Below are positions 1 to 10,971 of a stretch of DNA of 15,551 nucleotides, one piece after another. The position numbers and the translations under genes are program-made. The notes under the pieces are model-generated. The model was not told the DNA's origin, did no database searches, and saw only the letters and a program-made list of their open reading frames with translations. The DNA lies in the IMG/VR virus record IMGVR_UViG_2675903575_000009, positions 1-15,551 of that record. One strand, 5' to 3'. This DNA comes from a virus. Taxonomy: Duplodnaviria > Heunggongvirae > Uroviricota > Caudoviricetes. Position 1 is the stretch's first letter. The number at the start of each line of letters is the position of its first letter.

Positions 1-723
1 TTACGGGGTAATGCCAACCGCTGCCGCCACTTTGTCGCCACTAGTGCTTTGTTTTTCGAATTCATCTAAGGCTCTTTCAACATCAGAAAGATACTCTTTG
101 AATGAGTTCAAGATCATGCTTAACGAGCCCCCCATAAATAGGACCTGTTTTCCATCTTTTTTAAAAAAATCAGGATATTTTTCTATAAGTTCAATAATGC
201 TTTTAATATTTTGCCCATCGTTTTCTAAGTATTTTGCATCATTATGCGCACAACTGTTTCTTAATTTTGTTATTTTTTTGATATTCGAATAGTGGGATGT
301 TGACTTCATCCCTATCATTTTTTTGATAAATAGATGGCTCCTCTCAAATCCACTTCCTTTGAGATCTGAAACATTTATAGGAGAATGATGTCTATTAGCA
401 AAGTTGTTACAGAATTTTTCTATTTCGTGTTCAAAAATTCCGAATATAGTTAAGAATACTGACCTGCGGATAATACTTGGGTAGTATTCTAAAAACATTT
501 CATCGAGATCTAGCGATGAGCTGGTGAGTCCCATGTAATGATCAATTGACTGATATACACCATCTTCCGGAGATATTTCAATTATATATTCTTCAGGTCC
601 TTTGTCTTTATATTCTGCTATGCCCTTAGCGATTGATGATTCGCTATGAGTGATTAACGTCTCGATAATATCAAATGTTAAGGAGAAGTCGAATATTGGG
701 AATTGAAACAAAAACTTAACCAT
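1..723 (-). CDS. Hypothetical AT-rich cargo protein immediately downstream of int; contains an R-x4-H motif (RNSCAH) reminiscent of HEPN-type RNase/abortive-infection proteins
   Basis: Six-frame ORF 1..756 (251 aa) with stop at 1-3; I prefer the internal Met at 723 (weak AAGG about 9 nt upstream) over 756 (no RBS). Markedly AT-rich compared with the neighbouring int. Motif KLRNSCAHN fits the Rx4-6H HEPN signature, but one short motif is weak evidence. Confidence 0.5.
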   Translation of the reverse strand: MVKFLFQFPIFDFSLTFDIIETLITHSESSIAKGIAEYKDKGPEEYIIEISPEDGVYQSIDHYMGLTSSSLDLDEMFLEYYPSIIRRSVFLTIFGIFEHEIEKFCNNFANRHHSPINVSDLKGSGFERSHLFIKKMIGMKSTSHYSNIKKITKLRNSCAHNDAKYLENDGQNIKSIIELIEKYPDFFKKDGKQVLFMGGSLSMILNSFKEYLSDVERALDEFEKQSTSGDKVAAAVGITP

Positions 724-733
724 GCTTGAACCT

Positions 734-1765
734 TTAAGAATCTGATTTAGTAACATCCAAAGTTGCTAGTGGATTGAAACGAAGAGCTGTCTCTAAGTGA
801 TCAGGTGATAGATGAGCATAACGCATAGTCATTTTTATGTCGTGATGTCCGAGGATTTTTTGCAAAGCAAGGATGTTTCCACCCGACATCATGAAATGCG
901 CCGCAAACGTATGACGCAGAACGTGTGTAAGTTGACCGCGAGGGAGCACGATAGACGTTTTTTCCATCACGGATAAAAATTGAAAATAGCAGTCTGTGAA
1001 GAAATTGAACCCATCAAGCGCCATGATCTCTTCATAAAGCTCTTTACTGATAGGGATGCTTCTGTTTTTCTTCCCCTTCGTTCTTACAAAGGTAATTCGG
1101 TATTTGGTCACCTGTGATCGGGTAAGGTTTATTGCTTCTCGCCAGCGTGCGCCTGTGCTTAAGCATATCTTGACTACCAGTGCCAGAATTGGGTCCTGAC
1201 GTTTGCAATCATCCAGCAGTTCAACAATCTGCTCATGGGTAAGCCATGCCATCTCTTTTTCTGCGATGGTGAATTTTCGCATGTTCTCCAGTGGGTTTGG
1301 ATACGACCATTCGCCCAGGCGGGATAGTTCGCTAAAAACACTACTTAGATAGCTTTGCTCCAGGTTAATGGTGACCGGGCTGGCCCCTTTCTTCCATTTC
1401 TCGCTGAAGTAGATCTCACCTGTCAGTCGTTTATCTCGATAATGGGCAAACATTTTAGATGTGAGATCGGTTGCAAGGGGATTGCCCAGAGCGTCAACCA
1501 TCAGCAGCAATTTGTCATAGACATGCTGCCCAGCAGTCAGAGATTTACCATGTAGTTTGAACCATAGCTCAACCACGTCTTTCAGGGTTCGACGATCTAC
1601 TGATTCGCCCAGCCAGGGCTTTGCTTCGGTTTCTTCCATCGTGTGACGCTCAAAAGCCAGTGCTTCGCCTTTGGTGGCGAATTGTTTACGCACACGACGC
1701 CCACTACGTCCGGCGGGGTAACATTCGCAAAGCCATTTTCCTGTGGTGAGTTTTCGTACTGCCAT
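734..1765 (-). CDS. int: Tyrosine site-specific integrase (P2 Int-like)
   Basis: N-terminus MAVRKLTTGKW...RSGRRVRKQFATKGEALAFE closely parallels the P2 Int N-terminus; C-terminal catalytic region HVLRHTFAAHFMMSGGNILALQKILGHHDIKMTMRYAH carries the R...HxxR...Y tyrosine recombinase signature. The ORF track extends to 1843, but the conserved start is the Met at 1765, preceded by GGAGGG (1774-1779 on the minus strand). Confidence 0.92.
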   Translation of the reverse strand: MAVRKLTTGKWLCECYPAGRSGRRVRKQFATKGEALAFERHTMEETEAKPWLGESVDRRTLKDVVELWFKLHGKSLTAGQHVYDKLLLMVDALGNPLATDLTSKMFAHYRDKRLTGEIYFSEKWKKGASPVTINLEQSYLSSVFSELSRLGEWSYPNPLENMRKFTIAEKEMAWLTHEQIVELLDDCKRQDPILALVVKICLSTGARWREAINLTRSQVTKYRITFVRTKGKKNRSIPISKELYEEIMALDGFNFFTDCYFQFLSVMEKTSIVLPRGQLTHVLRHTFAAHFMMSGGNILALQKILGHHDIKMTMRYAHLSPDHLETALRFNPLATLDVTKSDS

Positions 1766-1794: not shown

Positions 1795-1818
1795 TACTGT
1801 ATGTATAACCAGTGTCAA
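1795..1818 (-). promoter_or_regulatory. Candidate LexA (SOS) box overlapping a sigma70-like promoter directly upstream of int
   Basis: TACTGTATGTATAACCAGTG (1795-1814) fits CTGT-N8-(A/C)CAG with an AT-rich spacer; the CCAG right half is the variant I recall from the uvrB box. On the minus strand a perfect TTGACA -35 (1813-1818) lies 17 nt from AAAAAT (1790-1795), so the box covers the spacer. 17 of 20 positions match the box at 8016-8035. Confidence 0.4.
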
Positions 1819-1951: not shown

Positions 1952-2143
1952 TTATCGCGAGTTTTTAGTACAGATTTTTTTTGATTTACTAATAGTTCCA
2001 TCATTGCAAACGAACTTTCCATCGGAGGTACAGTGAGAGACACCTCCCTTTTTCCCAGAACAAGGATAATTTTTAGCATAGGTAGTTAGTGGGTTTAATA
2101 ACAAAGAGCATGATAAAACCACAAAAAATACCTTACCAAGCAT
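1952..2143 (-). CDS. Small (63 aa) AT-rich secreted or lipoprotein-like Cys-containing protein between cI and int
   Basis: Strong RBS GGAGG about 7 nt upstream of ATG (minus strand, around 2150-2155); N-terminus [23 protein letters not shown] looks like a signal peptide (possible lipobox VLSC); the mature part has 4 Cys. AT-rich relative to the flanking cI and int. Confidence 0.5.
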
Positions 2144-2158: not shown

Positions 2159-2728
2159 TTACCTAACGTACTTAATTGTTAAACTTATAATTTTTCCAAT
2201 TATTTCAACATCTTCTATCTTGCACTCGAAGGCTCTGTTTCCACCTTCAACGAAGATTCTTCCACCGGGTAAACGAGTAATGTCGCGGATTGTTATTTCG
2301 CCATCAATACTTATTACCCATTTACCATCACGTATATCATCAAATTCTTTATCACAAATAAATTCAGAATTGTTATCTGTGATGACAAAAGGTTTTTTAA
2401 ACGTAGAGGGTAGAAATCCCTTATCAAAAATATAAAAACCGTCTTCACGCAAGGCACCATCAGATAATACATATTTAGCAACTTCCATCGTATTTGTATT
2501 ACCTGAAGTTTGCTTTGAACCATGTCCAGTTGTGAGCCAATTAAGCGAGGTGCCCGTTTCAAGGGCGCACTGGATTACCCATTCTGCTGGGAATGAGTCA
2601 CGCATGTAGCGTGTAGCGAGTGTACTTTTAGAGATTCCTAAATGATCGCACAACGCCTGTCGAGTTTTGAATCCATAAGCTTCTACCATGCGCTCTATAG
2701 CGCCTCGTCCGCCTTTCTCCAAATTCAT
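2159..2728 (-). CDS. cI: Phage CI-type immunity repressor (186 CI-like, HTH N-terminal domain)
   Basis: About 190 aa, the size I recall for 186 CI rather than the roughly 99-aa P2 C; N-terminal HTH-like segment KTRQALCDHLGISKSTLATRYMR; divergent from the cox/apl-like early operon. Start taken as ATG 2726-2728 (GGAG 5 nt upstream); the ORF track begins two codons earlier at a GTG. Confidence 0.8.
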   Translation of the reverse strand: MNLEKGGRGAIERMVEAYGFKTRQALCDHLGISKSTLATRYMRDSFPAEWVIQCALETGTSLNWLTTGHGSKQTSGNTNTMEVAKYVLSDGALREDGFYIFDKGFLPSTFKKPFVITDNNSEFICDKEFDDIRDGKWVISIDGEITIRDITRLPGGRIFVEGGNRAFECKIEDVEIIGKIISLTIKYVR

Positions 2729-4658: not shown

Positions 4659-5512
4659 GCACCATCCTGAAATGGGCGGGAAATAAAACCGCCATTATGT
4701 CCGAACTGAAAAAACACCTTCCTGCTGGCCCGCGACTGGTTGAACCTTTCGCGGGTTCCTGTGCTGTGATGATGGAGACGGATTACCCCAGCTATCTGGT
4801 TGCGGATATTAATCCTGATTTAATCAACCTCTATAAAAAGGTTGCCGCTGATTGTGAATCGTTTATATCTCGCGCCAGAGTTTTATTTGAGATCGCAAAC
4901 AGGGAGGTGGCTTATTACAACATAAGGCAGGAGTTTAATTACTCCACTGAAATTACTGATTTCATGAAAGCGGTATATTTCCTGTATCTCAATCGTCACG
5001 GTTACCGTGGTTTATGTCGCTATAACAAGAGCGGGCATTTCAACATTCCCTACGGTAATTATAAAAATCCGTATTTCCCTGAAAAAGAAATTCGCGCATT
5101 TGCAGAAAAAGCCCAGCGGGCAACGTTTATCTGCGCCAGCTTTGATGAAACGCTGGCGATGTTGAAGGCGGGGGATGTGGTGTATTGCGATCCGCCGTAT
5201 GACGGCACGTTTTCCGGTTATCACACTGACGGCTTCACTGAAGATGACCAGTATCACCTGGCATCCGTTCTTGAACATCGGTCATCAGAAGGACATCCGG
5301 TCATTGTTTCTAACAGTGACACATCCCTGATCCGTTCGCTGTATCGCAATTTTACTCACCACTACATCAAGGCAAAACGCAACATCGGTGTGGCAGCTGG
5401 CGAGGGTAAATCAGCAACAGAAATCATTGCTGTTTCCGGGCCGCGCTGCTGGGTGGGATTTGATTATTCGCGTGGCGTGGACAGTTCTGCCGTGTACGGA
5501 GTACGTGCATGA
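4655..5512 (+). CDS. dam: DNA N6-adenine methyltransferase (Dam family), phage-encoded orphan MTase
   Basis: N-terminus [11 protein letters not shown] and FAGSCAV (AdoMet-binding motif I region) plus catalytic DPPY ([10 protein letters not shown]) are Dam-family hallmarks; GGAGG RBS at 4644-4648; ATGA overlap with upstream and downstream genes. The ORF track start at 4595 is an unlikely 5' extension. Confidence 0.9.
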
Positions 5513-7923
5513 GTCATGCCGATATGAACAACTGCTGCGGCTTTAACGAGGCTGCCGCAGCATTCTCATGGAACAGCCCGAAAAAGGCCATTAACCCTTA
5601 TCTGGACCCGGCGGAAGTTGCGCCGGTTTCTGCGCTTTCAAACCTGATCACTCTGTACGCTGCCGATAACGAGCAGGAACAACTGCGCCGCGAGGCACTG
5701 AGTGATCAGGTCTGGGAGCGTTATTTCTTTAATGAATCCCGTGATCCTGTCCAGCGCGAAATGGAGCAGGATAAGCTAATTAGCCGGGCAAAGCTGGCGC
5801 ATGAGCAGCAGCGTTTTAATCCAGACATGGTCATTCTGGCGGATGTCAACGCCCAGCCTTCCCATATCAGCAAGCCGCTGATGCAACGTATTAAATACTT
5901 CAGCAACCTGGGCAGGCCAAAGGCTTATTCCCGCTATTTGCGTGAGACGATTAAGCCATGCCTGGAACGACTGGAGCATGTACGCGACAGCCAGCTATCT
6001 GCATCTTTTCGTTTTATGGCAAGCCATGAAGGGCTGGACGGTCTGCTGATCCTGCCTGAAATGAGTCAGGATCAGGTGAAACGCCTGTCCACCCTTGTCG
6101 CTGCGCATATGAGCATGTGTCTTGATGCCGCTTGTGGTGATTTGTACGCCTCCGATGATGTTAAGCCGGAAGAAATCCGCAAGACATGGGAAAAGGTGGC
6201 AGCAGAAACCCTGCGACTGGATGTCATACCGCCTGCGTTTGAGCAACTCCGCCGGAAAAGAAACCGCCGCAAACCTGTGCCCTATGAACTCATTCCGGGT
6301 TCGCTGGCGCGTATGCTGTGCGCCGACTGGTGGTATCGGAAATTATGGAAGATGCGTTGCGAATGGCGGGAAGAGCAGTTGCGTGCTGTCTGTCTGGTCA
6401 GCAAAAAAGCATCTCCCTATGTCAGCTATGAAGCCGTGATGCATAAACGTGAGCAGCGCCGTAAGTCGCTGGAGTTTTTCCGTTCTCATGAACTGGTGAA
6501 CGAAGACGGCGACACGCTGGACATGGAGGATGTGGTAAACGCCAGCAGCAGCAACCCTGCGCATCGCCGCAATGAGATGATGGCCTGTGTTAAAGGCCTG
6601 GAGCTTATCGCGGAAATGCGCGGTGACTGCGCCGTTTTCTACACCATCACCTGTCCGTCACGTTTCCATTCCACGCTAAATAACGGCAGGCCCAACCCGA
6701 CCTGGACAAATGCGACGGTAAGACAAAGCAGTGATTATCTGGTTGGCATGTTTGCTGCATTTCGTAAGGCGATGCACAAAGCCGGATTGCGCTGGTATGG
6801 CGTGCGGGTGGCTGAGCCGCATCATGACGGTACAGTTCACTGGCACCTGTTGTGTTTTATGCGCAAAAAAGATCGCCGCGCCATTACTGCTTTGTTGCGT
6901 AAGTTTGCCATTCGTGAAGACCGCGAGGAGCTGGGGAATAACACGGGACCACGCTTTAAGTCTGAGTTGATTAACCCGCGCAAAGGAACGCCGACAAGCT
7001 ACATCGCGAAATATATCAGTAAGAACATTGACGGGCGTGGTCTGGCTGGCGAGATCAGCAAGGAAACGGGTAAATCCCTGCGTGATAACGCTGAATACGT
7101 GAATGCCTGGGCGTCTCTGCATCGTGTTCAGCAATTTCGCTTCTTTGGCATTCCGGGGCGTCAGGCTTACCGTGAACTGCGATTGCTGGCTGGTCAGGCG
7201 GCAAGGCAACAGGGTGACAAAAAAGCAGGTGCGCCGGTACTGGATAACCCGCGGCTTGATGCAATCCTGGCTGCTGCTGATGCTGGTTGTTTTGCCACCT
7301 ACATCATGAAGCAGGGCGGCGTACTGGTTCCCCGTAAATATCACCTCATCAGAACTGCTTATGAAATCAACGAAGAGCCGACCGCCTATGGCGATCACGG
7401 CATTCGTATTTATGGCATCTGGTCACCTATTGCAGAGGGCAAGATCTGCACTCATGCCGTGAAGTGGAAAATGGTTCGTAAGGCCGTTGACGTTCAGGAG
7501 GCGGCAGCCGACCAGGGCGCTTGCGCCCCTTGGACTCGTGGCAATAACTGTCCCCTTGCTGAAAATTTGTACCAACAAGGGAAAGACAAATCAGCTGATG
7601 GAGATACCAGAACGGATATCACCCGCATGGATGACAAGGAGTTGCACGATTACCTGCACAGTATGAGCAAAAAAGAGCGCCGGGAACTGGCAGTAAGGTT
7701 ACGCCTGGTGAAACCGAAACGGCGTAAAGACTACAAACAGCGAATTACAGACCATCAGCGACTGCAGCTCGTGTATGAACTGAAGTCCAGGGGATTTGAT
7801 GGCAGCGAGAAAGAGGTCGATTTACTCCTTCGCGGCGGCAGTATTCCGTCAGGAGCAGGCCTGCGTATCTTCTATCGGAACCAGCGTTTGCAGGAAGATG
7901 ATAAGTGGCGAAACCTGTATTAA
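5509..7923 (+). CDS. A: Replication initiation endonuclease (P2 gpA / 186 A-type rolling-circle initiator)
   Basis: 804 aa; [11 protein letters not shown] metal-binding motif and paired-tyrosine active site YIAKYISK (YxxKY) typical of P2 A-family nickases; canonical position after the early genes. Confidence 0.9.
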
Positions 7924-8015
7924 TTACGCGGGTTAACAATTCGTGCTCTTAATAATACCAGGCATATCAGGCTGATGAGCGTAAAAAAACGTTTTACATC
8001 AGTAAGATTATTATA

Positions 8016-8035
8016 TACTGTAAATATAAACAGTG
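8016..8035. promoter_or_regulatory. LexA (SOS) box upstream of the tum/dinI-like module
   Basis: TACTGTAAATATAAACAGTG is a perfect CTGT-N8-ACAG with AT-rich spacer, about 40 nt upstream of ATG 8076, overlapping promoter-like hexamers (TTTACA 7993-7998, TATACT 8014-8019). Confidence 0.6.
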
Positions 8036-8075
8036 GTTATGTATACAGTATTGCTTTGGTGTCATAGGAGGAAAG

Positions 8076-8264
8076 ATGCAGGACTATTTTTTGGAGTCTT
8101 TGAAGCTCCAGCGCATTGATTTTTTTCTTAAGCTTGTAGCGGCTAGTGAGTGTAGTGATGAAGAGAAGGGGCTGGCTCTGCAGTGGGTTTCTGAACTGAC
8201 AGATGAACTCATGGCAAAAATCAGAACCCACGAATACAACCGCTCAATGGATGTCATCAGCTGA
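8076..8264 (+). CDS. Hypothetical 62-aa protein, first gene of the LexA-controlled module (possible Tum N-terminal-equivalent)
   Basis: Perfect AGGAGG RBS 6-7 nt upstream of the ATG; directly downstream of the LexA box; stop 10 nt before the DinI-like start. Confidence 0.55.
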   Translation: MQDYFLESLKLQRIDFFLKLVAASECSDEEKGLALQWVSELTDELMAKIRTHEYNRSMDVIS

Positions 8265-8274
8265 GGTGACTTTT

Positions 8275-8508
8275 ATGCGCATTGAAATAATGATCGATAA
8301 AGAGCAGAAGATTAGCCAGTCTACACTGGACGCCCTTGAATCCGAGCTTTACCGCAATCTGCGCCCCCTGTATCCCAAAACGGTAATTCGTATCCGCAAA
8401 GGTAGCTCTAACGGTGTGGAACTTATCGGATTGCAACTGGACGAAGAAAGAAAACAAGTGATGAAAATTATGCAGAAGGTGTGGGAAGACGACAGCTGGC
8501 TGCATTAA
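8275..8508 (+). CDS. DinI-family protein (186 Tum C-terminal-like / DinI-like)
   Basis: 77 aa; MRIEIMIDKEQKISQSTLDALESEL...IMQKVWEDDSWL parallels E. coli DinI (MRIEVTIAK...ETWESADDWF) in length and conserved ends; GAGGTGA RBS 5 nt upstream. The ORF track start at 8203 is a 5' extension in the same frame. Confidence 0.8.
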   Translation: MRIEIMIDKEQKISQSTLDALESELYRNLRPLYPKTVIRIRKGSSNGVELIGLQLDEERKQVMKIMQKVWEDDSWLH

Positions 8509-8719
8509 GAAACGTTGCTGGCGTCTGAACCTGCTTCTGGCGTCAGCAAGGTTGAACCGCGAGCCTTGAGAGGCGTTAACCATAAGTAAAAAGACAGTAA
8601 TCACTTGATTATCTATCAGGGCGAGACCTATGCTGCACTTTTAGTTATAACTCATAATGTATTGAAATTATTATAATATATGTCATTCTTAAAATGTGTA
8701 TGCTTATCAAGGAGCAAGA

Positions 8720-9592
8720 ATGAAACGTGGCATTGTAGCTAATCCTAATGAAATGAGTTTTCATAGAAATAATAGTACGGTCTATCTTGGGGCAGGTTTA
8801 ACTGAGCAGGATATTAATTATTTCTGCTTTTACTGGGATGATGTGGTTATTCTAGATAGTGAAAATATTCACTCGATTGTGCCTAAAGAAAAAGAATTAT
8901 TAGATAATGGGGTATTACGTAGACCTATTATGAAACATGATGGGATGCTGAATATCCAAGACTTTCCATTTTTATATACGGAATTTCAGTTGCAGACATT
9001 GGATGAATTCAGGAAGAACGAGCCTGCTACTTATTGGCACTTTCATCAAACAGGGGAAAATTTAATATATGATAAAGAACAGAAAACGGCCCTTCAGTTG
9101 AGATTGGAGTTGTTTAATGTTCTGAGAATTCCTGATAAAGATGCTCATATAGAAGATATATTACGTTTTAAAGATGATTGTCAGGATGATCTTAATGCGT
9201 TACATGAGTACTTAGAAAAACTGTATACTGAAGTCCTTTATTCTAGAGACCCTAATCTAACGAGGGCTAAAAATTTTTCTTTATTACAAGAGGCTGTAGT
9301 TAATCTTGATAAAGCTATCGAAGGGAAATGGAGAAATCCTATCAGAATGGGAGTCAAAGCCAATCCAGAAGTAGATGGTGGGCAGGTTCTGGAATTTTTA
9401 AAACCGTTGTACCATGCTGCTATTGCTGGTTATTCAGGCGGTATTATTCCCGGTATGGTTACAGCCTTGGCAACCGCAATTCCAAGTTTTATAAAATTCC
9501 AACCAGAATGGGTGGGCTTTAGAGATAAGGGGCCTAAAGAATTAGCTTATCTTACCAAAGCAACGCATAAGGGGTTGATTAAGAGAGCTTAA
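8720..9592 (+). CDS. Hypothetical AT-rich accessory protein (290 aa) with a C-terminal hydrophobic segment; candidate anti-phage or abortive-infection gene
   Basis: ORF 8696..9592; preferred start ATG 8720 with GGAG about 6 nt upstream. Strongly AT-rich against the GC-richer phage backbone; no family recognised by eye; C-terminal AAIAGYSGGIIPGMVTALATAIPSFI looks like a membrane helix. Location between A/tum and cos corresponds to the P2 tin/old accessory locus. Confidence 0.6.
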   Translation: MKRGIVANPNEMSFHRNNSTVYLGAGLTEQDINYFCFYWDDVVILDSENIHSIVPKEKELLDNGVLRRPIMKHDGMLNIQDFPFLYTEFQLQTLDEFRKNEPATYWHFHQTGENLIYDKEQKTALQLRLELFNVLRIPDKDAHIEDILRFKDDCQDDLNALHEYLEKLYTEVLYSRDPNLTRAKNFSLLQEAVVNLDKAIEGKWRNPIRMGVKANPEVDGGQVLEFLKPLYHAAIAGYSGGIIPGMVTALATAIPSFIKFQPEWVGFRDKGPKELAYLTKATHKGLIKRA

Positions 9593-9909: not shown

Positions 9910-10971
9910 ATGCTTAAAACAAATAAGGTATTTATTGACACACAAACGTACGTAAAGGCTGGTCTTCATTTTGAGGGGGTAGCATTTAAAGCTTTCCATG
10001 AATTATGTGCGAAAGGTGATTTAGTCTTAATTACAACTACAGTTGTAGAGAGAGAAGTAAAAGGTAAAATAGAGGAATCAATAAAGGATGCTCTGCAGGC
10101 TATAAACACAGTACAAAGAAAAGCTAGGCTTTTGAATAGTATTGATAATGGACCGCTCCATGGTTTTTTTCAGCAATTTAACGAACATGAAATTCACGAA
10201 GCAGCACAAAAAGTTTTTGATGATTTTTTGAAAGGATGTCACGCCAAATTAGCTACAATAGAAGTGATAGATCTTAATGAGGTTTTAGATAAATACTTTG
10301 GCAAAGAACCACCATTTGGGCAAAATAAGAAAAAAAGTGAGTTTCCTGATGCAATCAATTTAGCTGCGGTAGAGCGATTTGTTAATGATGAAGATGTGTA
10401 TATCATTTCTGAGGATAGTGACTTAAAAAATTATTGTGATGGTAAAAACAATCTTCATCAAATTGATTCACTTGATAAGTTTCTAGGTGAATACAATACG
10501 CATACAAACGAATTAAGTAATAAATTGATGCAGTTTATCGAAAGCAAACGTGAAGACATAAGAGCGGACGTAATTGCCCAACTCAATGATGCCGATGGAT
10601 ATAACGTTTCAACTTGGGAAGACGCTGAATTGGATTCATTTGAAGTCGTCAATATTGATGACTTTGAACCATCAATAATTAAGATTGACAATAATTATTG
10701 TCTAGCGACCTTCTCTGTTTCTGTAGATTTTGAAGTTACTGTTTCTGGTCCAGACTTTAATAATGGGTATTGGGATAGCGAAGATAAAGTAATGATTCCA
10801 ATGGAGACAACCACACGAACTGAAGTTCAAGAGATTAGTTTCGATATTGAAATTGAAGTTATGTATGAAATCGAGGATGGTGAATTAACAGATATCGCAT
10901 TTGATGTGAATATTGATAAGTTATCCCGAGGGATTGAGTTCTCTATTGAAGAAAATAATTTTGAATATTAA
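9910..10971 (+). CDS. Hypothetical AT-rich accessory protein (353 aa): possible PIN-like nuclease N-terminal domain plus highly acidic C-terminal domain; candidate anti-phage defence gene
   Basis: AGGA RBS 5 nt upstream of the ATG. The N-terminal ~175 aa have acidic residues spaced like PIN-domain metal ligands (VFIDTQ with D10; TTTVVEREV; FPDAINLAAVE; YIISEDSDL). The C-terminal ~150 aa are very D/E-rich with beta-like stretches. Strongly AT-rich; lies between cos and Q, where P2 has no gene. Confidence 0.6.
   Translation: MLKTNKVFIDTQTYVKAGLHFEGVAFKAFHELCAKGDLVLITTTVVEREVKGKIEESIKDALQAINTVQRKARLLNSIDNGPLHGFFQQFNEHEIHEAAQKVFDDFLKGCHAKLATIEVIDLNEVLDKYFGKEPPFGQNKKKSEFPDAINLAAVERFVNDEDVYIISEDSDLKNYCDGKNNLHQIDSLDKFLGEYNTHTNELSNKLMQFIESKREDIRADVIAQLNDADGYNVSTWEDAELDSFEVVNIDDFEPSIIKIDNNYCLATFSVSVDFEVTVSGPDFNNGYWDSEDKVMIPMETTTRTEVQEISFDIEIEVMYEIEDGELTDIAFDVNIDKLSRGIEFSIEENNFEY

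What the first reader, a model, noticed from the sequence alone, without database searches (positions are those of the whole stretch)
8016..8035. Consensus LexA box in front of a Tum/DinI-like module: SOS-inducible antirepressor circuit
A perfect CTGT-N8-ACAG palindrome lies about 40 nt upstream of a two-ORF module whose second ORF is clearly DinI-like. In coliphage 186 the LexA-controlled tum gene encodes an antirepressor with a DinI-like C-terminal part, which makes the prophage UV-inducible (P2 itself is not). This window appears to carry the equivalent circuit.
Basis: partly seen in the sequence, partly recalled or inferred. Interest (0 to 1): 0.55.

Follow-up and report, generated by a model that had tools for sequence, protein, structure and literature searches.

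The report
Known SOS-controlled prophage antirepressor switch (tumA/tumB)
This is the already-characterised DNA-damage switch of a 186/Fels-2-type prophage: the host LexA repressor keeps a small antirepressor gene (tumA) and a DinI-like gene (tumB) silent until DNA damage, and a 98%-identical copy in E. coli HS has been shown by deletion to be required for induction.

Summary
TACTGTAAATATAAACAGTG lies at 8016-8035, 40 nt before a two-gene module. It matches the LexA consensus at 17 of 20 positions, and no shuffle of the window reached that. Equivalent sites occur in 38 of 40 related loci from more than 15 genera.

The window is a near-twin of the E. coli HS prophage DuoHS: CI 95% identical, ORF1 98%, ORF2 99%, promoter almost identical. 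In DuoHS, an in-frame deletion of the 62-aa ORF1 homologue ("tum") or a lexA(Ind-) allele abolishes mitomycin C induction (PMC12055606).

ORF1 is the split "TumA" form of the N-terminal antirepressor half of 186 Tum (hhalign probability 96%). ORF2 is the DinI-like "TumB". The same split is on record for PSP3 and Fels-2.

- There is a second LexA box (8031-8050) overlapping the first by one base in its 16-nt core. This is the same tandem layout as the colicin E1 operator.
- The left arm of box 1 serves as the -10 hexamer, as annotated for 186 p95.
- A further strong LexA-like site (1795-1814) fills the spacer of a dedicated integrase promoter.

Interest is low, because this is an ordinary, previously demonstrated circuit.

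The parts
7993..7998 (+). -35 hexamer TTTACA of the tum (p95-type) promoter, preceded by an A-tract
   Evidence: It lies 17 nt upstream of TACTGT. It is 97% conserved across 27 distinct Fels-2-clade promoters, whereas the 17-nt spacer is 66% conserved. The layout matches the annotated 186 p95. The generic promoter scan did not report it.
8016..8035 (.). LexA box 1 (TACTGTAAATATAAACAGTG); its left arm TACTGT (8016-8021) doubles as the -10 hexamer
   Evidence: HI 5.54. The arms are 99% and 94% conserved. A box is present in 38 of 40 loci. The 186 record annotates its -10 and LexA site in the same way.
8031..8050 (.). LexA box 2 (CAGTGGTTATGTATACAGTA; core GTGG-N8-ACAG at 8033-8048), whose core overlaps the core of box 1 by one base
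   Evidence: HI 10.82, the third-best 20-mer in the window. The arms are 91% and 94% conserved. The composite CTGT-N9-CAGTGG-N8-ACAG is found in the window, in 18 of the related phage loci, and in the colicin E1 operator of ColE1. LexA binding was not tested.
8066..8071 (+). Ribosome-binding site AGGAGG of tumA
   Evidence: Read directly from the sequence. GGAGG is conserved in the related loci.
8076..8264 (+). tumA: 62-aa stand-alone antirepressor, homologous to the N-terminal half of 186 Tum
   Evidence: 98% identical (61/62) to E. coli HS ECHS_RS04495, the gene deleted as 'tum' in PMC12055606. 98.4% identical to Fels-2 STM2728. hhalign against the 186 Tum N-terminal family gives probability 96%. 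It falls in phrog_698, which 186 Tum also hits. No Pfam, NCBIfam or PDB match.
8275..8508 (+). tumB: 77-aa DinI-like protein
   Evidence: Pfam DinI E 9.3e-23. 41% identical to 186 Tum residues 71-145. 99% identical to ECHS_RS04500. Matches E. coli DinI structure 1ghh. Its GAGGTG ribosome-binding site overlaps the tumA stop codon.
8514..8550 (+). GC-rich hairpin just after tumB, with no U-tract; a possible partial terminator at the position of 186 t95a
   Evidence: Predicted fold; the whole-region z-score is only -1.8. The generic terminator scan did not report it. Its function is inferred only.
2159..2728 (-). cI: the 186-type immunity repressor and presumed target of TumA
   Evidence: Pfam Phage_CI_repr + Phage_CI_C. 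32% identical to 186 CI and 95% identical to E. coli HS CI.
1795..1814 (-). Separate LexA-like box in the spacer of a promoter (TTGACA at 1818-1813) 29 nt upstream of the integrase start codon (ATG at 1765); not part of the given finding
   Evidence: HI 5.33, the best in the window. Sequence context. Conserved in four divergent phages and identical in E. coli HS. Present in 80 of 80 IMG/VR loci chosen by integrase protein, across 14 different upstream contexts.

Best explanation
The region is the SOS operon (tumA-tumB) of a 186/Fels-2-type P2-like prophage.

In the lysogen, host LexA occupies a tandem operator. Box 1 covers the -10 hexamer and box 2 lies immediately downstream, so the promoter TTTACA-17 nt-TACTGT is shut. 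DNA damage activates RecA, LexA cleaves itself, and the operon is transcribed.

The 62-aa TumA then binds the 186-type CI repressor, which is not itself RecA-cleavable, and stops it holding the lytic promoter off. The prophage therefore enters lytic growth. TumB, a DinI-like protein translated from an adjacent and probably coupled start, most likely acts on RecA filaments to modulate the strength or duration of the SOS signal.

Shown here: the sequence features, their conservation, the homologies, and near-identity to an experimentally tested prophage.
Shown in the literature for near-identical or homologous phages: dependence of induction on tum and on cleavable LexA, and antirepressor action of 186 Tum on CI.
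Inferred: LexA occupancy of both boxes in this element, TumA contacting the CI N-terminal domain, and the role of TumB.
For: - Operator quality and rarity.
- Conservation of the -35, -10/box 1 and box 2 against variable spacers and flanks in 27 distinct promoters, and a box in 38 of 40 loci.
- Same promoter/operator layout as the annotated 186 p95.
- PSP3 record annotates tumA ('UV induction of prophage') and tumB.
- Fels-2 and PSP3 tum described as split by a stop codon, with the upstream gene encoding the antirepressor: PMC3121763.
- TumA is a remote homologue of the 186 Tum N-terminal half: hhalign probability 96%, E 4.9e-9; PHROG cross-hits.
- TumB: DinI Pfam E 9e-23 and 41% identity to the Tum C-terminal half.
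- CI is 186-type with no significant S24 peptidase domain.
- The E. coli HS prophage DuoHS has CI 95%, TumA 98% and TumB 99% identical, and a promoter identical except for 3 nt in the N8 of box 2. There, deletion of ECHS_RS04495 or lexA(Ind-) abolishes mitomycin C-induced lysis and virion formation (PMC12055606).
- 186 Tum is described as the anti-CI factor expressed from LexA-regulated p95 (PMC7708051).
- Box 2 has the same geometry as the ColE1 colicin operator. Colicin tandem boxes bind two LexA dimers (PMC2994835 and PMC4482635).
Against: - No experiment exists on this exact element.
- BLASTP finds no similarity between TumA and 186 Tum. The homology rests on profile methods and a short (42-column) alignment.
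- TumA has no Pfam, NCBIfam or PDB relative.
- Box 2 has a weak left arm (GTGG, HI 10.8), and its AT-rich N8 is almost as conserved as its arms. Its conservation could therefore partly reflect a promoter-proximal or 5'-UTR constraint rather than LexA binding.
- The generic promoter scan did not call this promoter.
- The window covers only part of the prophage, so I cannot tell whether the whole element is intact.
- The primary papers (Bunny 2002, Shearwin 1998) could not be read.
Confidence: 0.92

Rival explanations
1. The LexA-controlled unit is only a DinI-type cargo gene ('moron') that tunes the host SOS response. ORF1 is an unrelated small ORF, and prophage induction proceeds by another route.
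For: Chromosomal dinI and the Gifsy dinI homologues are themselves LexA-controlled (PMC8072944). ORF1 has no Pfam or NCBIfam match, and BLASTP finds nothing against 186 Tum.
Against: An in-frame deletion of the 98%-identical ORF1 alone abolishes induction in E. coli HS. Profile homology links ORF1 to the Tum N-terminal half. ORF1 homologues without any DinI gene (ESSI-2 and ESSI2_ev015) still carry the LexA box. The CI here has no significant autocleavage domain, so an antirepressor is needed.
Confidence: 0.03
2. The palindrome is a chance AT-rich sequence, or a site for a phage regulator such as CI or Apl, and is not a LexA operator.
For: A bare CTGT-N8-ACAG turns up in 13% of shuffled windows. 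The region is AT-rich.
Against: The 20-mer is unmatched in 200 shuffles. Its HI lies within the range of strong E. coli operators and about 5 sd from the window background. The arms are conserved across more than 15 genera while N8 and the flanks vary. lexA(Ind-) blocks induction in the near-identical prophage.
Confidence: 0.01
3. The module is intact, but the circuit does not work in this particular element. Either the prophage is defective elsewhere, or its CI has drifted out of reach of TumA.
For: Only 15.5 kb of the element is visible. Phages carrying a TumA at least 98% identical to this one have CI C-terminal domains only 25-42% identical to this CI. One relative (Siccibacter, L037) has decayed boxes.
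Against: The CI here is 95% identical to that of the inducible DuoHS, with an identical N-terminal domain. All visible genes are intact (int, cI, cII, A, tumAB, portal, terminase). The promoter and operators are intact.
Confidence: 0.04

Closest known systems
Coliphage 186 SOS operon (p95-tum-orf97)
   Same: Same position after replication gene A. The promoter's -10 TACTGT is the left arm of the LexA box. There is a DinI-like moiety 41% identical, an N-terminal antirepressor moiety detectable by profile methods, and a 186-type CI target.
   Different: 186 Tum is a single 146-aa fusion protein, with internal starts that also yield the DinI-like part alone. Here the two halves are separate genes 10 nt apart. 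186 has a single LexA box 18 nt from the start codon, whereas this element has two overlapping boxes. Sequence identity is very low in the antirepressor half: MAFFT gives 18% and BLASTP finds nothing. The downstream orf97 is replaced by different cargo.
E. coli HS prophage DuoHS tum (ECHS_RS04495) and Salmonella Fels-2 STM2728/STM2726.1
   Same: Essentially the same module. TumA is 98% identical in both. TumB is 99% identical in HS. The promoter and both boxes are identical apart from the N8 of box 2. In HS, CI is 95% identical and int has the same LexA box.
   Different: The cargo downstream of tumB differs. The Fels-2 CI is only 38% identical overall: 67% in the N-terminal domain and 25% in the C-terminal domain. 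Fels-2 has no room for a separate int promoter, because cI and int abut.
Phage PSP3 tumA/tumB
   Same: The same split two-gene arrangement behind a LexA box. The record annotates it as 'similar to 5' end 186 tum; UV induction of prophage' and 'similar to dinI and 3' end of 186 tum'.
   Different: PSP3 TumA belongs to the 186-type sequence family (phrog_1993), not to the family of the window ORF1 (phrog_698). PSP3 has a single LexA box.
Colicin tandem SOS operators (e.g. colicin E1 on ColE1)
   Same: Same composite architecture, CTGT-N8-xCAG overlapping GTGG-N8-ACAG by one base. Box 2 of Fels-2 is identical to box 2 of ColE1.
   Different: In ColE1 the boxes lie just downstream of the -10, whereas here box 1 is the -10. 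The regulated genes are unrelated. This is a resemblance in operator design, not a relationship between genes.
Gifsy/Fels-1 LexA-controlled antirepressors (GfoA, GftA) and N15 AntC
   Same: Same logic: LexA represses a small antirepressor that inactivates a non-cleavable repressor. In the Gifsy phages it is co-transcribed with a dinI homologue (PMC3121763).
   Different: The protein families and repressor types differ. In the Gifsy phages the gene order is reversed, with dinI first.

Membership tests
186-type Tum SOS antirepressor module | LexA operator overlapping the promoter immediately upstream of the gene | tested here: met
   Box 1 at 8016-8035 has HI 5.54 and covers the -10. It is conserved in 38 of 40 loci. 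Physical LexA binding was not tested.
186-type Tum SOS antirepressor module | Located downstream of replication gene A in a P2/186-like genome that has a 186-type CI/Apl/CII switch | tested here: met
   Pfam finds Phage_GPA, Phage_CI_repr + Phage_CI_C and Phage_CP76. The gene order matches the 186 record.
186-type Tum SOS antirepressor module | Antirepressor moiety homologous to the N-terminal half of 186 Tum | tested here: met
   hhalign of family profiles gives probability 96% and E 4.9e-9 over columns 3-44 of each. 186 Tum hits phrog_698 (E 2.4e-5), and both proteins hit phrog_8554. Pairwise BLASTP is negative, so the relationship is remote.
186-type Tum SOS antirepressor module | DinI-like moiety, either fused as in 186 or as a separate downstream gene as in PSP3 and Fels-2 | tested here: met
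   PF06183 E 9.3e-23. 41% identical to Tum residues 71-145. Here it is a separate gene.
186-type Tum SOS antirepressor module | The gene product is required for SOS induction, and induction requires cleavable LexA | not testable with these tools
   Shown in the literature for the 98%-identical E. coli HS gene, using the tum deletion and lexA(Ind-) (PMC12055606). Not shown for this element.
186-type Tum SOS antirepressor module | The protein binds CI and prevents operator binding | not testable with these tools
   Reported for 186 Tum (Shearwin 1998, as cited in PMC3121763 and PMC7708051). The only indirect support here is that TumA identity tracks CI N-terminal-domain identity (Spearman 0.80, n=11, not corrected for phylogeny) but not C-terminal-domain identity (0.23).
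Colicin-type tandem SOS operator | Two 16-nt LexA boxes overlapping by one base, the second with a degenerate GTGG left arm | tested here: met
   Window 8018-8048 matches CTGT-N9-CAGTGG-N8-ACAG, as do 18 related phage loci and ColE1 5063-5093.
Colicin-type tandem SOS operator | Occupancy by two LexA dimers, giving very tight repression | not testable with these tools
   Known for colicin operators (PMC2994835 and PMC4482635). Box 2 here has HI 10.8, comparable with box 2 of ColE1 at 11.1.
DinI family (PF06183) | Significant match to the family profile over its full length | tested here: met
   80.8 bits against a cut-off of 24.2, covering profile positions 1-63 of 63. Matches PDB 1ghh at E 4.9e-7. 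It scores below the NCBIfam equivalog cut-off for chromosomal DinI (45.5 against 111 bits), so it is a family member but not the host orthologue.

The most novel reading that the evidence does not exclude
Fels-2/DuoHS-type prophages may run a small two-promoter SOS regulon of their own. One arm is a colicin-style tandem LexA operator on tumAB, which would give tight, late, all-or-none release of the antirepressor. The other is a separate LexA box inside the spacer of a dedicated integrase promoter, which would make Int only during SOS. In addition, TumA may recognise the conserved N-terminal DNA-binding domain of CI, which would explain how one nearly invariant TumA serves repressors whose C-terminal domains are only 25-42% identical. 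I found none of these three points stated in the papers I could read, but my literature check was shallow.
Probability: 0.4. Interest if true: 0.4.

Novelty: already known. Interest (0 to 1): 0.15.

Why it matters
The circuit decides whether this prophage, which is common in Escherichia, Klebsiella and Salmonella, is released by DNA-damaging antibiotics. That matters for gene transfer and lysis in the gut.

The practical value lies in annotation rather than discovery. The key gene, tumA, is labelled 'hypothetical protein' in RefSeq and in phage records, 'unknown function' in PHROGs, and has no Pfam or NCBIfam model. Genome-based predictors of inducibility will therefore miss it unless they look for the LexA box.

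The tandem operator and the LexA-controlled integrase promoter are modest refinements that could be tested easily in the existing E. coli HS system.

Tried and rejected
- BLASTP of ORF1 against 186 Tum found nothing. Profile methods were needed.
- ORF1 has no match in Pfam, NCBIfam, PADLOC or the PDB.
- An exhaustive HMMER search returned only 66 cluster representatives, mostly 35-100 aa. The few longer ones (up to 133 aa, plus one outlier of 1,218 aa) matched ORF1 at their C-terminal end or only weakly. I saw no fused 146-aa form in this sub-family.
The single-protein query worked.
- My first composite-operator pattern had the wrong spacing and matched nothing. I corrected it.
- The generic promoter/terminator scan did not call the tum promoter. 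It reported only a weak stem-loop at 8253-8270, at a frequency no higher than in shuffled sequence.
- Bunny et al. 2002 (PMC151935) is not held, so the Fels-2 statements come second-hand from PMC3121763.
- A literature search for 'TumA/TumB' returned only unrelated papers.
- The supplement of PMC8072944 held no operator sequences. I took operators from PMC3009722 instead.
- Rfam found nothing in the window.
- The hypothesis that TumA is decoupled from its repressor was softened after splitting CI into domains: the N-terminal domain is conserved.
- The viral-contig pattern scan for the int box is biased by the pattern itself. I replaced it with a sample chosen by integrase protein, but that sample is all at least 98% identical in Int.
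- I did not attempt structure prediction of the 62-aa TumA, because it would not have changed the verdict.

Full report
**What is in the sequence.** Window 8016-8035 reads TACTGTAAATATAAACAGTG, with the core CTGT-N8-ACAG at 8018-8033. It is the only exact CTGT-N8-ACAG in the window. That 16-mer pattern alone is weak evidence, because 26 of 200 dinucleotide-preserving shuffles contain one. The 20-mer is much stronger: it matches the LexA consensus at 17/20 positions, and no shuffle reaches that. I built a heterology index from the 16 E. coli operators listed in Table 4 of PMC3009722. On that index the site scores 5.54. Known operators span 2.2-16.6, and all 20-mers of the window average 40.4 with sd 6.4.

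The 20-mer ends 40 nt before the ATG of a 62-aa ORF (8076-8264). Ten nucleotides after that ORF's stop codon comes a 77-aa ORF (8275-8508) that is a full-length DinI-family protein (PF06183, E 9.3e-23).

**Genomic setting.** The window is part of a 186/Fels-2-like member of the Peduoviridae. In order it carries:
- an integrase;
- a 186-type CI repressor (Phage_CI_repr + Phage_CI_C, with no significant S24 peptidase domain);
- an Apl-sized ORF and CII (Phage_CP76);
- the gpA replication endonuclease (5509-7923);
- the module under study;
- two cargo genes;
- portal, terminase and scaffold genes.

Its closest phage records are Klebsiella and Escherichia P2-like phages.

**Comparison with phage 186.** The 186 GenBank record annotates, directly after gene A, the SOS-dependent promoter p95. 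Its -35 is TTCACA, the spacer is 18 nt, and its -10 TACTGT forms the first six bases of a LexA site, TACTGTATGTTTATACAGTA. The tum gene follows. The window has the same layout: TTTACA (7993-7998), a 17-nt spacer, then TACTGT (8016-8021), which is the left arm of box 1.

ORF2 is 41% identical to residues 71-145 of the 146-aa 186 Tum (E 1e-24). ORF1 shows no BLASTP similarity to Tum. However, a profile of the ORF1 family aligns with a profile of the 186 Tum N-terminal family at 96% probability (E 4.9e-9, columns 3-44 of each). Independently, 186 Tum hits the PHROG of ORF1 (phrog_698, E 2.4e-5, residues 7-44), and both proteins hit phrog_8554.

ORF1 and ORF2 therefore correspond to the two halves of Tum, encoded here as separate genes. 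This split form is already on record:
- The PSP3 record annotates tumA ("similar to 5' end 186 tum; UV induction of prophage") and tumB.
- The Fels-2 record cites PSP3 TumB for its DinI gene.
- Lemire et al. (PMC3121763) state that Fels-2 and PSP3 have tum split by a stop codon, with the upstream gene encoding the antirepressor.
- 186 itself keeps an internal ribosome-binding site and a GTG start (Tum95.5) at the point equivalent to the tumB start.

**Direct experimental precedent.** The window is a near-twin of the prophage "DuoHS" of E. coli HS:
- CI is 95% identical.
- TumA is 61/62 identical to ECHS_RS04495.
- TumB is 76/77 identical to ECHS_RS04500.
- The 150-nt promoter region differs at only a handful of positions. 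Within the two boxes, the only differences are 3 nt in the N8 of box 2.

The supplement of Ortiz de Ora et al. 2025 (PMC12055606) names ECHS_RS04495 as the "tum" gene they deleted in frame. That deletion, and a lexA(Ind-) G85D allele, each abolished mitomycin C-induced lysis and virion formation. The circuit is already known.

**Conservation.** I collected 33 genomic loci encoding ORF1 relatives from Escherichia, Citrobacter, Enterobacter, Klebsiella, Raoultella, Kluyvera, Serratia, Pantoea, Erwinia, Tatumella, Siccibacter and others, plus six phage loci. A LexA-type box with at least 7 of 8 core bases lies upstream of the ORF in 38 of 40 sequences. One exception is cut by a contig end, and the other (Siccibacter, L037) has decayed boxes.

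In an anchored comparison of 27 distinct promoters of the Fels-2 clade, conservation was:

| Element | Identity |
|---|---|
| -35 hexamer | 97% |
| 17-nt spacer | 66% |
| Box 1 arms | 99% and 94% |
| Sequence after the operator | 62% |

This is the pattern expected of a functional promoter and operator.

**A second, overlapping LexA box.** In the Fels-2 clade the box lies 34-49 nt from the start codon. In 186, PSP3, ESSI-2 and the Pantoea/Erwinia clade it lies 18-23 nt away. The extra sequence is a second box, CAGTGGTTATGTATACAGTA (8031-8050). Its core GTGG-N8-ACAG shares one base with the core of box 1. It scores HI 10.8, the third-best 20-mer in the window and similar to dinG or uvrD. Its arms are 91% and 94% conserved.

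The composite CTGT-N9-CAGTGG-N8-ACAG occurs in the window, in 18 of the related phage loci, and at 5063-5093 of plasmid ColE1, just upstream of the colicin E1 start. Box 2 of Fels-2 is identical to box 2 of ColE1. [quoted passage not shown] This gives very tight repression, with expression in only a small fraction of cells (PMC2994835 and PMC4482635).

I infer, but have not shown, that the tandem operator likewise makes tum a tightly shut, late SOS function. One caveat applies: the AT-rich N8 of box 2 is nearly as conserved as its arms, so part of that conservation may have another cause.

**Mechanism.** LexA occupies the operator and blocks the promoter. DNA damage leads to LexA self-cleavage and to transcription of tumA-tumB. 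TumA then inactivates CI, which has no significant autocleavage domain. This matches what is described for 186 Tum (PMC7708051, PMC3121763).

The data also hint at which part of CI is recognised. Phages whose TumA is at least 98% identical to the window's have CI N-terminal (DNA-binding) domains 67-78% identical to the window's (100% in the near-twin DuoHS). These domains share a long invariant block, SKST-A-RY-RD-FPA-W-IQC-LETG. Their C-terminal domains are only 25-42% identical (93% in DuoHS). Across 11 phages, TumA identity tracks N-terminal-domain identity (Spearman 0.80) but not C-terminal-domain identity (0.23). This analysis is not corrected for shared ancestry, so it is only a lead.

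TumB presumably acts on RecA filaments as DinI does. The 186 record says the DinI-like truncated Tum products "modulate SOS induction". Its ribosome-binding site overlaps the tumA stop codon, and a 6-bp stem (8253-8270) whose loop alone varies between relatives covers part of it. Translational coupling is therefore plausible but untested.

**Rival explanations.**
- A pure DinI cargo gene is contradicted by the tumA deletion phenotype in DuoHS, and by relatives that keep the box and tumA without any DinI gene.
- A chance palindrome is contradicted by the statistics and by the conservation.
- The one real uncertainty is whether this copy is part of an intact, inducible prophage, because only 15.5 kb is visible.

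**Noticed outside the finding.** The heterology-index scan found an equally strong LexA-like site at 1795-1814 (HI 5.33). The strict pattern missed it because one arm is CCAG. On the minus strand it fills the spacer of a promoter with a perfect TTGACA, 29 nt upstream of the integrase start (ATG at 1765, the same start RefSeq uses in E. coli HS).

This site is conserved in four divergent phages whose upstream genes differ. It is also present, as 12 different box sequences, in all 80 IMG/VR loci chosen by integrase protein, which fall into 14 different upstream contexts. Those integrases are all at least 98% identical, so this sample shows persistence across recombination rather than deep conservation. 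I found no paper describing it in one shallow search.

**Verdict.** The finding is an already known and experimentally demonstrated circuit, so interest is low. The tandem operator, the LexA-boxed integrase promoter and the link between TumA and the CI N-terminal domain are small, testable refinements.

Noticed in passing
window 1795-1814 (box), 1813-1818 (-35), int 734-1765 (minus strand): A strong LexA-like box (TACTGTATGTATAACCAGTG, HI 5.33) fills the spacer of a TTGACA promoter 29 nt upstream of the integrase ATG. It suggests a separately SOS-controlled int gene. It is conserved in 4LV2017, KP12, 813R9 and ESSI2_ev129, is identical in E. coli HS, and is present in 80 of 80 IMG/VR loci chosen by Int protein across 14 upstream contexts. 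The ORF listing start for int (1843) is probably too far upstream.
   Followed up: partly
window 1952-2143 (minus strand): A 63-aa ORF with a signal-peptide-like N-terminus ([23 protein letters not shown]...) is inserted between cI and int. It belongs to phrog_6000 (unknown function), has no Pfam match, and is conserved in E. coli HS. It is probably a cargo gene (moron), and it may explain why int needs its own promoter.
   Followed up: partly
window 8696-9592 and 9910-10971 (+ strand): The variable cargo region between tumB and the portal gene holds a DUF6236 protein (298 aa) and a PIN_12-domain protein (353 aa). Neither hits PADLOC. Relatives carry different genes at this position: orf97 in 186, and two hypothetical proteins in E. 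coli HS. I did not determine whether these genes are read through from the SOS promoter.
   Followed up: partly
window 1-756 (minus strand): A 251-aa ORF overlaps the 3' end of int at the edge of the window. It has only a sub-threshold HEPN_RiboL-PSP hit (E 0.005) and its function is unknown.
   Followed up: no
L037 (Siccibacter turicensis) about 1410-1500: This is the only full-length relative in which both LexA boxes have decayed (TGCTGTGTATATAAGTATTT followed by gatatataatattt), although the -35 and tumA are intact. It may be a LexA-independent or defunct copy.
   Followed up: no
window cI 2159-2728 versus CI of Fels-2, 813R9, Kp4872-2, Kp4845-2, Kp4865-2: The CI repressors of phages that share an almost identical TumA are mosaic. 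Their N-terminal DNA-binding domains are 67-78% identical to the window's, with an invariant block around the helix-turn-helix. Their C-terminal oligomerisation domains are only 25-42% identical.
   Followed up: partly
window 8253-8270: A six-pair stem-loop (GTCATC-AGCTGA-GGTGAC, followed by TTTTATG) spans the tumA stop codon and the tumB ribosome-binding site. In Fels-2 only the loop differs. It could couple or attenuate tumB expression, but such stems are as frequent in shuffled sequence.
   Followed up: no
L001 (phage 186) 7281-7295: The fused 186 tum gene retains an AAGGAGG ribosome-binding site and the GTG start of 'Tum95.5' exactly where the separate tumB gene starts in split relatives. 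Many 186-type Tum N-terminal homologues in the protein database are stand-alone proteins of 63-78 aa. Together these suggest the 186 fusion is the derived state.
   Followed up: partly
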